Below are positions 20,331-29,128 of a stretch of DNA of 64,000 nucleotides, piece after piece; positions within the stretch are counted from its first letter, which is position 1; every line of letters starts with the position of its first letter. The notes under the pieces are model-generated. The model saw only the letters and a program-made list of their open reading frames with translations. It searched no databases and was not told the DNA's origin. The DNA comes from Eledone cirrhosa (lineage: Eukaryota). The translations under genes were made by a program, and so were the position numbers. Location: NCBI GenBank assembly GCA_964016885.1, contig OZ024740.1, positions 33,976,001-34,040,000 of the forward strand, written 5' to 3'.

Positions 20331-21969
20331 CTATGCTGTTTTGTTGCTGTGCTGATAAGCTTTTTGGCATTGATACACTGGTTGGATGCCCTTCCTAACA
20401 CCAGCGCCACTTTACAGCATGGACTGGGTGCTTTTATTTGTGCCACCAGCACTAGAGAGGATGTCTTACTAGACTCAAGGGCCCTCTCTACCCCTCCATT
20501 TTACAGCATGGTCATTAAAATAAAAAAAATAAAAAAAATAAAAAACTTATTGACACGACGCACACACAAACACTCACACACCGATACTCATGCATACAAA
20601 CCACAACCACACATACCAACACTCATTCATGCATACAATCATACACACCACTCACAAACATATATATATATATATATATATACATATATTACCGACAGTA
20701 CTGATACAAAATCAAAATCAAAATCGTCAAAATCACTATCATGTCAACTGTTGACCTTTCCCAGTCCAGTTCGGCTTGTATATAATAACAATAACAATAA
20801 TAATTGTTTGCGGTGGTGGATGGTGTCAGTGTGGTGGTGGTGGTGGTGGATGGTCAGTGATGGTGGTGGCAGTTGTTGGTGCTGTAGTTGTTATTGTAGT
20901 TGTTGTCGTTGTTGCTGTTGTTGTTGTCCTTCATTTCACTGCTGCTGTTGCTGCAGACAATGGTGTTGATGCTGTTATTGCTGTCGCATATATACAAATA
21001 CATACACACACACGCATTCAACACAGACGATGGTGTTGTTGCTGTTGTTGCTGTTGTTGTTGGTGTTGCTGCTGTTGTTGTTGTAGTTGTTGCTGTGTTG
21101 AAATCTGGTCGCATCCACTGAGATATACATATACACACACATACACATATGTATATACACATACATACATCAAAAGAGAGTCAGCAGTATGTCAACAGGG
21201 GACAGGACAGCGACCTTAGAGTAATGTGGTGATGGTGGGGAGCGAGTGTAGGCGTTATTGTTATTGTGGTGACGGGGGGGGGGGGGGTTGGTCAGTGAGA
21301 TGTTACAAGTTCATAGATCACTTCTCTCTTTTCCTCTCTCTTCAAAATTTTGAATTTATGGCCTTTTGCAATGGCGGACAAGTATATATAATATATATGA
21401 AGCAAAGAAAAGAACATTTTTTTTTACTGATATGAAAGATTATATATATATATATATATATATATATATTATATATATATATATGCATGTATATATATAT
21501 ATGTATATATTATATATATATATATGCATGTATATATATATATATATATATATATGCATGTATATATATATATATATATATATGCATGTATATATATATA
21601 TATATATATATGCATGTATATATATATATATATATATATATATATATATATATATATATGCATATATATATATATATATATATATATATGCATGTATATA
21701 TATATATATATATATATATATATATATATATATATGCATATATATATATATATATATTGTTATACTTTGGGAGGGTCATGTTGCCAATTCAGAAACGAAA
21801 TATATATATATATATATATGCATATATATATATATATATATATATATATATGCATATATATATATATGCATATATATATATATATATATATATATATATA
21901 TATATATATATATATATATATATATATATGCATATATATATATATATATATATGCATATATATATATAT

Positions 21970-24298
21970 ATCATCATCATCATCATCATCAACGTTTAAC
22001 GTCCGTGTTCCACGCTTGCATGGGTTTGGACGGGGGTAGTCCCACTTGAGGCAAGAGTGGTTGTCTTGCTCGCATAGGACTGTCTGGCAGGTTTTCTACA
22101 GTTGGATGCCCTTCCTAACACCAACCACATTTACAGTGTGGGTCTGGGAGGTTTTTACCGTGTTGCCTACACGGCCACATTACAGCGTGGACTGTGTGTT
22201 TTTTTGTCGTGACACCTACACGATCTCATTTGTTTCGGCCTGGATGGCGCGGCACCAACATAACTTTACATAGAACGGGGTGGTGTGGATGGGGTGGGGG
22301 TGGTGGCGGGACGGGGTGTATTTTGTTAGAGATGCCTACTGGCAAGGCGGGTCTTCTCTGTTACTGAGTACCGCCAAAGGTCTCGGTCCAGTGACATTGT
22401 CTTGGAGAGGTGTAAGTGTGTGAGGTCGGAGTTTATCAGCTCATCCCATGTTTTTCTAGGTCTGCCTATTCCGTGGCTACCGTCTATCTTTATTGCCCTG
22501 CACTTTGTAATACAGCTATCGACTTTCATGCGCATCACGTGTCCATACCAACGCAGCCTTCTCTCGAGTAAACAACATCTGATCCCTCTTATCTCTAATT
22601 TTTTCCTTAGTTCGTTTATGCTTTGCCGTTCACGTATATTACTGTTACACATCCAGCGGAGCATGCAAGCTTCGTTCCTCTCTAGTCTGCGTATATCCTC
22701 TGCACACAATGCCCAGGTCTCACTACCATGCAACATTGCTGTTCGTATGCAGGCATCGTACAACCTGCCTTTCATTTTTAGGGAGAACCCTTTAGCAGCT
22801 AATAGTGGTATAAGCTCTCTGAACTTTTTCCAACCAGTTCTGACTCTAGCTACAGTACTTTCAGAGCACCCTCCCCCACTGCTGATTTTATCGCCCAGGT
22901 AACGGAAGCTGTCCACTATTTCTATAGAACCCTCTGCGCAATTGAAAGAGCTAGTAGTTTGTGGGCACTTGCTGCTACTTATTGCACCAGAACACCGGCC
23001 ACATGTAAAGTCTATGTTCTTAGTTAGCTTACCTGTGATCCCACTACATCTTTTATGCACCCATACTTTGCATTTAGGACATAAGATGGAGTTTCTACCT
23101 ACGCCTTTCCTACATACCGAGCACGACCATTTCCCAGAAGGGACCGCCGCCTTGTTTTCTTTCCTACAAACTAGAACTTTGGTCTTAGCCAGGTTAATTT
23201 TAAGTCCTTTTGACTCTAGGCCGTGCTTCCATGTTTGGAATTTCTTCTCTAGCTCGGCCATTGATTCCGCTATGAGTGTCAGGTCGTCTGCGTATAGGAG
23301 TTCCCATGGGCAGCCTGTCTTGAACTCCTCTGTTATAGCCTGAAGGGCAATAATAAATAGTAGGGGGCTGAGAACAGAGCCCTGATGGACGCCAACTTTT
23401 ACGCTAAACTCTTCACTATATTCGTTGTTAATTCTAACCTTGCTGACTGTTTCTTTATACATGGCTTGTATAGCCCTCACAAGCCATTCGTCAACGCCTA
23501 GTTTTCTAAGAGCCCACCAGATAATGGAACGGGGGACTCTGTCGAAGGCTTTCTCCAGGTCGACAAAAGCTAAGTAGAGGGGTTTACCTTTAGCTAGGTA
23601 CTTCTCCTGTAGTTGTCGTACTATGAAAAGAGCGTCTGTGGTGCTTTTGCCTGACACAAACCCGAACTGCATTTCATCTAGGTCAATTCTCTCTCTGATT
23701 AGTTGCGCTATTACTTTTTCCGTGACCTTCATGACCTGGTCGATTAATTTAATGCCTCTATAGTTACTCCTATCTAGGGCGTCTCCTTTACCCTTATAAC
23801 AGTTAACGATGATGCTGCTATGCCAGTCCTTCGGAACAACCCCATTCTGTACGACTTGGTTAACTATGCGGGTGACCATGGTGTGTCCCACCGTGCCAGA
23901 TGCCTTCAGCATCTCAGCAACTATTTCCGAAGGCCCAGCCACCTTACCAGTCTTCATATCCTTGATTGCCTTACTTATTATACTCCCCTCGACTAACACT
24001 GCTGGTCCCTCTATCGGGTCGATATGGGGGAGACTGTCTTTCTCCCATTTATTCTCCTCATTTAGTAGCCTTTCATAGTGACACTTCCAAGCTACCTTCT
24101 TATCAGTGTCGGTGGTGGCAAGTATGCCATCATCGTTAAGTACACACTTCTCCCCGACAATATCACGGTTTTCCTTGACGCATTGCCTGGCAATCCTGAA
24201 CACCTCACGTTTTTGGTCATCGCGTTGTAGAACATGCTTGAACTTTCTTTCCTCAGCTTCCCTTCTTGCTAAGTACACTTCTCTCCTAGCTTCCCTCC
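21970..24298 (-). mobile_element. 5'-truncated RTE-A copy with intact RT frame, both ends in (TA)n
   Basis: ORF 22326-24298 is uninterrupted (RT, PHD-like finger); 3' UTR and (GAT)n tail present. Confidence 0.95.
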
Positions 24299-24395
24299 TA
24301 TATATATATATATATATATATATATATATGCATATATATATATATATATATATATATATATATATATATATATATATATATATATATATATATAT

Positions 24396-24882
24396 AAACA
24401 AGGTTTAGCAAATGAAAAAGTTTCAAATTAAATTTTAAAAAATTGACTTTACCTACTATAGTTACCTTTACCGATCGGTTTCGAATCCCAAAAATAAATG
24501 GAGACCATGCAGCCTTCGTTGCAAAGAAAGATTCTCGTCAGAAGGTTCTTTTCATTCGAAGAATATATAATTCCTGAATTTAAATTACGAACTAGCGCTA
24601 TCAAAACTGTTCCTGGGATGAGAGTGGATGATGTAGAAACAGGTTTATCAAGGGCCGAAGTAAAGATAGAGGCAGAAGGAGGTAGGTCAAACCAGCCGCA
24701 GCTATCACTAGCAGCAGTCGGAGCGACCAAATTTGTTCTCAACTTAGAGGAGTGCAACGAAGGCTGCATGGTCTCCGTTTATTTTTGGGATTCGAAACCG
24801 ATCGGTAAAGGTAACTATAGTAGGTAAAGTCAATTTTTAAAATTTATTTTGAAACTTTTTCATTATTTGCTAAACCTTGTTT
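24396..24882. repeat. ~128-bp inverted repeat with 229-nt spacer; Penelope-type half-hammerheads
   Basis: Arms 24396-24523 and 24753-24882. Each arm carries GAAACCGATCGGTA (GAAA + palindromic stem III + GUA). Confidence 0.85.
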
Positions 24883-25074
24883 ATATATATATATATATGC
24901 ATATATATATATATATATATATATATATATATATATATATATATATGCATATATATATATATATATATATATATATATATATGCATATATATGTATATAT
25001 ATATATGCATATATATATATATATATATATATATATATATATATATATATATATATATATATATATATATATAT

Positions 25075-28000: not shown

Positions 28001-28498
28001 AAAGGTGCAGAGCACTAGAAGTTGATGGAAACCGCGGAGTGGGGAGACCCAAGATGACTTGGGATGAGGTGATAAAAGCCGACCTTACCCAACTACACCT
28101 CTCAAAGTCAATGACACACGACCGTGACTTCTGGCGTCACGCAGTAATACAGGGTACCCGACCTCCCATGGGTACATGCTGAAGCATATAAACAATATGC
28201 CCCCCCCCCCCCCCCCCCCCCCACCGCAAGGTGGTCGTGGAGGTGCCACGGCAAAAAAGCACCCAGCCCACACTGTAAAGTGGACGTGTAGGCGCCACGA
28301 AAAAGCACCCAGCACTCACTGTAAATGAGGTTGGTGTTAGGAAGGGCATCCAGCTGTAGAAATCAAGCCAGATCAGTTCCTGTATGAGCAAGGCATGGTC
28401 AGCCGACCAGACACTGCCCACAACAGGACAACCCGTCTAACCCATGCTAGCGTGGAAGAACGGACGTAAAACGGTGATGATGATGATGATGATGATGA
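25075..28498 (+). mobile_element. RTE LINE subfamily 'B' with uninterrupted APE-RT ORF (to 28182), 3' UTR and (GAT)n tail
   Basis: About 1035 codons without a stop: APE motifs ([24 protein letters not shown]), RT (QGSVLSP, YADD), C4HC3 finger, RLRWYGHV thumb. The 5' end abuts (TA)n. Confidence 0.96.
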
Positions 28499-28499
28499 T

Positions 28500-29028
28500 A
28501 TGCATATATATATATATATATATATATATATATATATATGCATATATATATATATGTATATATATATATGCATATATATATATATATATATATATATATA
28601 TATATATATATATGCATATATATATATATATATATATGCATATATATATATATATATATATATATATATATATATTTCGTTTCTGAATTGGCAACATGAC
28701 CCTCCCAAAGTATAACAATATATATATATATATATATGCATATATATATATGCATATATATATATATATGCATATATATATATATATATATATATATATA
28801 TATATACATGCATATATATATATATATATATACATGCATATATATATATATACATGCATATATACATATATATATATACATGCATATATATATATATAAT
28901 ATATATATATATATATATATATATATAATCTTTCATATCAGTGAAAAAAAATGTTCTTTTCTTTGCTTCATATATATATATTATATATACTTGTCCGCCA
29001 TTGCAAAAGGCCATAAATTCAAAATTTT
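28500..29028 (-). repeat. Inverted duplicate of 21344-21970
   Basis: Unique blocks AAAATTTTGAATTTATGGCC...GAAAGATT and TTGTTATACTTTGGGAGGGTCATG...GAAACGAAA, plus the interrupted TA tracts, recur in reverse complement. Confidence 0.92.
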
Positions 29029-29128
29029 CTAAGAGCCCACCAGATTACAGCACGTGGAACTCTGTCAAAGGCTTTCTCGAGATCTCGACCTATATATTAG
29101 GTTAACGCTTGATATAGCAGGAAGAGGG

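What the first reader, a model, noticed from the sequence alone, without database searches (positions are those of the whole stretch)
21344..29078. 7.7 kb mirror-symmetric structure centred on a half-hammerhead palindrome inside a CDCA7 intron
Seen: the order is A(21344-21970)-[RTE-A, minus]-(TA)n-palindrome(24396-24882)-(TA)n-[RTE-B, plus]-A'(28500-29028). A' is the reverse complement of A, including similar TGCA-interrupted TA tracts. The two LINEs belong to different subfamilies, yet they sit at equivalent positions with both tails pointing outward. Removing them leaves a ~2 kb palindrome whose axis is a Penelope-type hairpin. The outer junction (29025-29078) is a 54-nt inverted copy of RTE-B 26959-27012, with one mismatch and TTTT microhomology. 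Inference: foldback synthesis at the ribozyme hairpin copied flanking host DNA and ended by template switching. The LINE insertions then interrupted the palindrome, which would stabilise it.
Basis: partly seen in the sequence, partly recalled or inferred. Interest (0 to 1): 0.75.

Follow-up and report, generated by a model that had tools for sequence, protein, structure and literature searches.

The report
Mirror duplication patched by a retrozyme
An intron holds a real, one-off mirror-image duplication of about 850 bases per arm, likely started by a self-complementary TA repeat folding back on itself; its centre carries a two-armed insertion of a common ribozyme-bearing repeat, and two LINE jumping genes landed in the arms, one demonstrably and the other likely afterwards.

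Summary
The mirror symmetry is real and local. Without the LINEs it is 853 + 229 + 851 bp, and a junction shared by both arms occurs only twice in the 3.0-Gb genome. Several first-stage details are wrong. The axis is a 229-bp unpaired loop, not a hairpin. The centre is a head-to-head insertion of a common 481-bp hammerhead tandem repeat (retrozyme type) with a complete hammerhead motif on the minus strand. Block A is built from dispersed repeats. The outer 60-nt piece comes from an older sister LINE subfamily, not from RTE-B. RTE-B is younger than the duplication; RTE-A cannot be ordered. The unusual feature is that both retrozyme arms end at the same 'short' site, seen in 0 of 20 other two-armed loci. 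Best reading (0.5): foldback at the (TA)n tract, exit by microhomology, then a two-ended retrozyme patch at the fragile centre. Main rival (0.3): cDNA snap-back running into host DNA. Reads could not confirm the junction. Earlier notes of this scan report two-armed retrozymes and mirrored flanks elsewhere in this genome. A single-locus variant of known processes.

The parts
17220..21440 (-). RTE-C: a third RTE-type LINE, cut short at 21440 inside its long 5' region and joined to (TA)n; its last 97 bp are the outer part of arm A
   Evidence: other copies run on past this point (14 of 14)
21344..21971 (.). Arm A (outer left): 97 bp of RTE-C, TGCA-interrupted (TA)n, 42-bp mini repeat (21758-21799), TGCA-interrupted (TA)n
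21972..24298 (-). RTE-A, 5'-truncated LINE, open RT frame, (GAT)n tail facing outward; 7 private substitutions in 2308 bp
24299..24396 (.). Inner (TA)n, left; GC interruption 65 nt from the retrozyme end
24397..24752 (-). Long retrozyme arm: positions 123-481 of a 481-bp tandem monomer, outer end at the 'short' TA-priming site
24464..24546 (-). Complete type I hammerhead motif: stem I 5 bp, CUGACGA core, stem II 5 bp with a 42-nt insert, GAAA, palindromic stem III, GUA cleavage triplet; cleavage untested
   Evidence: no Rfam hit
24524..24752 (.). 229-bp unduplicated loop, all retrozyme sequence; the true axis
24753..24881 (+). Short inverted retrozyme arm: monomer positions 352-481, lacks the CUGANGA core; outer end also at the 'short' site
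24882..25074 (.). Inner (TA)n, right; GC interruption also at 65 nt
25075..28499 (+). RTE-B, near full-length LINE (APE-RT, open frame), tail outward; at most 1 private substitution in 3401 bp
28500..29028 (.). Arm A' (outer right): inverted copy of A (42-bp repeat 28676-28717; RTE-C piece 28928-29028)
29025..29089 (-). Piece of an older sister subfamily of RTE-B, joined to A' at a 4-nt microhomology with a further interrupted 5-nt match; likely the remnant of an earlier insertion
29523..29723 (+). Host exon closing the intron (upstream exon 11077-11124)
   Evidence: a contig of run X7 matches 29522-29723 exactly and continues elsewhere

Best explanation
This is a local inverted duplication of about 850 bp per arm, likely begun when a broken end in the self-complementary (TA)n tract folded back and copied leftwards through the 42-bp repeat into RTE-C, and likely ended by microhomology joining into an older LINE on the right. 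The resulting near-perfect palindrome would have a fragile TA centre. That centre was likely opened symmetrically and patched by a hammerhead retrozyme copied from both DNA ends by a Penelope-type enzyme (inferred; no partner element identified here), which left two arms with identical outer ends and a 229-bp loop. RTE-B then inserted into the right TA tract (shown younger), and RTE-A into the left one (order inferred). Shown: the duplication, identity of all parts, same-end anomaly, RTE-B age. Inferred: foldback at TA, deletion of most of the older LINE, the order duplication then retrozyme, the enzyme.
For: Unique junction shared by A and A' only, 2 genome matches. Arms of 853 and 851 bp. 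TGCA-interrupted tracts in all arm tracts but in 2 of 153 background tracts and 0 of 28 RTE-A/RTE-B 3' flanks, so the tracts predate the LINEs. GC at 65 nt from the retrozyme end in both arms (about 4% by chance, my estimate). Both retrozyme arms end at site 480-481, whereas 17 of 20 other two-armed loci have one long and one short end, 3 have a broken end and 0 have two short ends. The short arm's inner end (352) is also the inner end at L007 and L022, 2 of 30 inner ends in loci not selected for that shape, P=0.002 for one given site: it looks like a recurrent stop of RNA-templated synthesis, so the right arm looks like an ordinary second cDNA. Opposing arms of ordinary insertions share rare variants at L005, L008, L029, L115, so the double variant unique to these two arms needs no DNA copying. 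TA repeats forming hairpins and cruciforms: PMC12972899 (search listing and abstract start only).
Against: It needs two steps where the snap-back rival needs one. It must assume a symmetric opening of the centre (or later levelling between arms) to give two short ends and the matching GC. No TA-centred mirror duplication of non-repeat flank was found among 409 TA tracts in 519 kb (13 raw hits, all simple repeats or repeat ends). The arms and the loop have similar divergence (loop 1 in 229; arms 3 in 268 pairwise), so no time gap between the steps is visible. The 352 test rests on 2 loci and the site was chosen after seeing this locus.
Confidence: 0.5

Rival explanations
1. Single event, cDNA snap-back: the retrozyme cDNA primed at the short site was copied to position 123, its 3' end folded back on itself at 352, and DNA-templated synthesis ran back through the insert and about 720 bp of host flank before joining the right end by microhomology.
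For: Predicts at once two short ends, the matching GC at 65 nt, the shared unique double variant and equal ages. Strand polarity fits. Precedents: snap-back junctions of R2-protein insertions (PMC11371274, passages) and 52-220 bp foldback inversions beside L1 insertions (PMC10191854, passage).
Against: The landing point coincides with a recurrent inner end of ordinary RNA-templated arms. At most 1 nt of homology at the fold point. No second case among 67 loci on contig C1 with the exact short-end motif: 6 had both strands, the 5 others were inspected. The host run-through is longer than in the cited L1 cases.
Confidence: 0.3
2. Sister-end fusion: one break in the TA tract was replicated, both sister left ends were primed on the retrozyme RNA and joined head to head, and one arm was then broken about 850 bp out and rejoined to the right end.
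For: Explains two short ends, matching GC and the RNA-type stop at 352. Described for L1 as the second foldback model in PMC11702581 (passages).
Against: Needs a second break within about 850 bp of the fusion; such fusions normally duplicate long segments (established knowledge, recalled).
Confidence: 0.1
3. The inverted RTE-A and RTE-B copies formed a stem first, and a break at the RTE-B tail copied A to make A'. This was my first working idea.
For: The two LINEs are inverted homologues (76%) and A/A' start at their tails.
Against: RTE-B is younger than the arm divergence (P=0.0006 for all arms; 0.08 for A/A' alone). The junction piece is not from RTE-B. It leaves the two short ends and the matching inner GC unexplained.
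Confidence: 0.05
4. Assembly artefact, or a chimera of two haplotypes of an inversion.
For: No contig or read spanning the outer junction was seen in runs X4, X5, X6, X8.
Against: The arms differ by substitutions and indels and hold different LINEs; the centre is entirely retrozyme sequence; a read-level foldback would give near-identical arms. Contigs drop rare branches in repeats, and X8 is reduced-representation.
Confidence: 0.05

Closest known systems
Animal non-LTR retrozymes (PMC7229834, passages; bioRxiv 10.64898/2026.07.22.740005, part 1 of 5 read)
   Same: Non-coding tandem repeat with a type I hammerhead motif in each unit, monomers to multimers, dispersed.
   Different: 481-bp unit is slightly above the 150-450 bp range quoted; stem II carries a 42-nt insert; this copy is under one unit per arm and holds one complete motif.
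Insertions of endonuclease-bearing Penelope-like elements (PMC8557442, PMC3846280; passages)
   Same: 5'-truncated partial tandems, an adjacent inverted truncated copy, a tail on one end only, (TA)n targets.
   Different: Here neither end has the tail (115-118 nt in this family), the host flank is mirrored, and no coding partner was identified.
Snap-back junctions of R2-protein insertions (PMC11371274) and L1-linked foldback inversions (PMC10191854, PMC11702581); passages
   Same: A reverse-transcribed insert at the centre of an inverted duplication of target-flanking DNA, resolved by short homology.
   Different: Those are LINE-type enzymes in human cells; this is a retrozyme in an animal genome assembly, with about 720 bp of flank per arm, and the mechanism is not observed.
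RTE-clade LINEs
   Same: Single APE-RT frame (Pfam Exo_endo_phos, RVT_1), short-repeat 3' tail, 5' truncation.
   Different: No difference found; clade not tested by phylogeny.
Foldback DNA transposons and MITEs (recalled)
   Same: Long inverted arms around a loop.
   Different: The assembly of arms is single-copy and the centre is part of a tandem repeat, so it does not move as a unit.

Membership tests
Non-LTR retrozyme (family of the central repeat) | [quoted passage not shown] | tested here: met
   481-485 bp period at L020, L114/L115 and others
Non-LTR retrozyme (family of the central repeat) | Type I hammerhead motif in consecutive units | tested here: met
   4 consecutive units at L020; 58 of 63 motifs found have both stems fully paired, one divergent copy keeps stem II with changed letters. 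Rfam gave no hammerhead match
Non-LTR retrozyme (family of the central repeat) | No protein encoded | tested here: met
   Sense-strand frames of one monomer hold no long open frame across the unit; antisense frames not translated separately
Non-LTR retrozyme (family of the central repeat) | Self-cleavage and circular RNA | not testable with these tools
Penelope-type insertion footprint | Inverted 5'-truncated copy adjacent to the insert | tested here: met
Penelope-type insertion footprint | Tail on one end only | tested here: not met
   Met by 17 of 20 other two-armed loci, not by this one; the papers call the tail optional
Penelope-type insertion footprint | Link to an RT/GIY-YIG coding partner | tested here: inconclusive
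   One Penelope-like frame from the window gave 1 short hit in 30 loci, away from the repeat
Foldback/MITE DNA transposon (whole structure) | The whole unit is dispersed with the same ends | tested here: not met
   Junction pattern matches only A and A'; parts belong to separate families
Snap-back retrotransposition product | Inverted arm is a DNA-templated copy of the first cDNA | tested here: inconclusive
   Shared unique variants also occur between arms of ordinary insertions; inner end matches a recurrent stop
RTE-clade LINE | APE endonuclease plus RT in one frame | tested here: met
   (RTE-B; RTE-A is truncated and keeps RT only)
RTE-clade LINE | Placement in the RTE clade by RT phylogeny | not tested
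   No reference set at hand

The most novel reading that the evidence does not exclude
Penelope-type reverse transcriptase acts on symmetric DNA ends it did not cut in its usual staggered way: it either patches the broken centre of a fresh TA-centred palindrome from both sides or snaps back and copies about 700 bp of host DNA. 'Two short ends plus mirrored flank' is then a searchable genomic signature of retrozyme-linked foldback duplication.
Probability: 0.45. Interest if true: 0.5.

Novelty: new variant of a known kind. Interest (0 to 1): 0.3.

Why it matters
How Penelope-like elements make their tandem and inverted insertions is still open (PMC8557442 says so in passages read). An insertion that breaks the family's long-plus-short rule exactly where the flank is mirrored is a natural exception that constrains the mechanism, and it gives a pattern to search for. 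As one locus with two or three mechanisms still open, it settles nothing alone. No effect on the host gene is shown.

Tried and rejected
Rfam at gathering and E-value thresholds found no hammerhead; unconstrained folding did not give the hammerhead, constrained folding did. Laying contigs and reads showed no piece spanning the outer junction and zero cover of 29085-29115 at 98% likeness; inconclusive, as tables were cut, contigs drop rare branches and X8 is RAD-seq. Runs X1-X2 (small share) covered only repeats and, for X2, the exon; the ancestral intron state was not seen. A genome-wide search for paired short ends could not be run as one pattern, so only contig C1 was surveyed (94 of 555 motif matches). 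One search's first regex found nothing through my error and was redone. Rejected: MITE/Foldback element; template copy from RTE-B; RTE-stem foldback; TGCA tracts as a LINE by-product (0 of 28 flanks); shared variants as proof of snap-back. Paper searches 'Penelope + snap-back + inverted repeat + flanking' and 'retrozyme + inverted duplication' returned 0 papers; searches found no description of this layout in their listings. The library lacks most subscription papers, and no supplements were read.
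Full report
Setting. The window is G000:C1:33976001-34040000 of a 3.0-Gb animal assembly. Earlier scan notes call it probably an octopus; I did not test that. The structure lies in an 18.4-kb intron between exons 11077-11124 and 29523-29723. Exons matching Pfam zf-4CXXC_R1, the CDCA7-family domain (family link recalled), lie at 53064 and 55348 on the same strand; the link to this intron's exons is likely but not shown.

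The observation. A and A' align as reverse complements with two non-simple blocks, 97-101 bp and 42 bp. Both blocks are repeats. The 97-bp block is internal to the 5' region of a dispersed LINE, RTE-C (311 candidates, 40 scored); all 14 other copies viewed run on past the point where this copy joins (TA)n. The 42-bp block has 55 copies within one mismatch, and the 18 others viewed also sit in TA. The join of truncated RTE-C to (TA)n, however, matches 2 places in the genome, A and A'. So A' is a true local copy. Without the LINEs the arms measure 853 and 851 bp around a 229-bp loop.

The centre. It is not a hairpin palindrome: 127-129 bp arms enclose 229 unique bp. All of it belongs to a repeat with 1526 first-look candidates, 40 scored, whose unit is 481 bp and occurs in tandem. 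On the minus strand the left arm holds a full type I hammerhead motif; 58 of 63 motifs in the fetched loci have both stems fully paired, and one divergent copy keeps stem II with changed letters. Rfam does not detect it and cleavage is untested. This fits animal non-LTR retrozymes (PMC7229834, passages; 10.64898/2026.07.22.740005, part 1 of 5) inserted with a Penelope-type footprint (PMC8557442, passages; PMC3846280, passages).

The anomaly. In 15 other distinct two-armed loci (30 loci, 2 duplicates and this one set aside, the rest one-armed), one arm ends at monomer site 477-481 and the other carries a 113-118 nt extension. Among 5 more, 2 are long-plus-short and 3 have a broken end. None of 20 has two short ends; this locus does. 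Both arms also share a double variant found nowhere else in the genome, and both inner TA tracts have a GC 65 nt from the arm end. The symmetry therefore runs from the loop outwards.

Order of events. RTE-B has at most 1 private substitution in 3401 bp and RTE-A 7 in 2308 (24 and 11 comparison loci). The arms differ at 3 of 268 non-simple bp. At RTE-B's age 0.16 would be expected (P=0.0006; for A/A' alone, 1 of 139, P=0.08); at RTE-A's age 1.6 (P=0.22). TGCA interruptions are a trait of this locus: 2 of 153 background tracts, 0 of 10 RTE-A and 0 of 18 RTE-B 3' flanks. So the LINEs entered existing tracts. This overturned my first idea that the two LINEs formed the foldback stem. Both tails pointing outward is a 1-in-4 outcome, and the same two families meet in one TA tract at L099. 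Nothing shows stabilisation by the LINEs.

The outer junction. The 60-nt piece matches 726 sites within one mismatch, while the local RTE-B version has 2338 exact copies; the two differ at three synonymous positions. The sister subfamily is older (median pairwise 3.0%, 54 pairs of 11 copies). The piece is likely the 5' remnant of an earlier insertion whose 3' 1.4 kb was lost; capture from a transcript is also possible. The join has a 4-nt microhomology with a further interrupted 5-nt match.

Mechanism. Snap-back of the cDNA explains all symmetric features in one event and has precedents (PMC11371274; PMC10191854; PMC11702581; passages only; the first came from note e1-10308502). Two results weakened it. 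Opposing arms of ordinary insertions also share rare variants (11 of 46 opposing segment pairs, in 4 loci). And the short arm's inner end, 352, is the inner end at L007 and L022 too, 2 of 30 ends in loci not selected for this shape; L002-L006 were left out because the query favoured their shape. The right arm thus looks like a second RNA-templated cDNA primed from an end identical to the left one. That favours a palindrome made first by foldback at the self-complementary TA tract and then patched at its centre (0.5) over snap-back (0.3) and sister-end fusion (0.1). Against my choice: it takes two steps, no bare TA-centred duplication turned up in 409 tracts, ages show no gap, and the 352 test is small and post hoc.

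Recurrence and reality. On contig C1, 94 short-end matches fall in 67 loci; 6 have both strands, and the 5 others show neither two short ends nor mirrored flanks. The other 461 of 555 matches were not surveyed. Public runs neither confirmed nor excluded the junction. Arm differences and different LINE content argue against an artefact.

Verdict. A real, single-locus inverted duplication made of known parts, with one informative exception to the family's end rule. PMC9977147 (passages) was read for Penelope-linked duplications and described only direct LINE-linked ones. Searches found no paper on this combination; supplements were not read. Interest 0.3.

Noticed in passing
L007:1180, L022:1298, window 24753, L118:3597: Retrozyme arms often end near monomer position 350-352, inside the hammerhead's stem II insert, where the cDNA ends in the palindromic TGCA; possibly an RT stop or an RNA break.
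   Followed up: partly
L076-L131, 3' flanks of RTE-A and RTE-B copies: 17 of 32 flanks begin with a tandem array right at the tail (13 with period 5 or more) against 76 and 57 of 300 rough control windows. These LINEs may target tandem arrays or amplify the target on insertion.
   Followed up: partly
window 24946-25074 and 28501-28613: The same GC..GC..G..GC interruption pattern lies on both sides of RTE-B, consistent with a target-site duplication of about 128 bp.
   Followed up: partly
window 29092-29280: Another high-copy repeat with a hammerhead-like core on the minus strand at 29160-29125; a piece of the same family lies between TA tracts near 31673-31720.
   Followed up: partly
window 21758-21799 and L048-L065: The 42-bp repeat has the same two ends in TA at many loci; it may be the isolated tail of a Penelope-type element.
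   Followed up: partly
window 11640-29089: The whole 17-kb pile of LINEs shares the rare TGCA-interrupted TA pattern (tracts at 12049, 16060, 16406 too), suggesting that it grew inside one microsatellite.
   Followed up: partly
window 16175-16640: 233-bp tandem duplication of an RTE-A tail with its TA tract.
   Followed up: no
window 43719-44564 (+) and 48684-49913 (+): Open frames resembling a Penelope-like RT/endonuclease and a piggyBac-type transposase (resemblances recalled, not scanned against a library).
   Followed up: no
window 56780-63994: 47-bp satellite, 151 copies at 92% matches, running to the window end; a 69/138-bp array at 52531-53000.
   Followed up: no
window 4070-4133 and 41402-41473: tRNA-like heads of a dispersed repeat, likely a SINE.
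   Followed up: no
L099:2208-2545 and L017:1859-1979: Independent elements meeting tail to tail across one TA tract (RTE-A with RTE-B; two retrozyme subfamilies), which can mimic mirror symmetry.
   Followed up: partly
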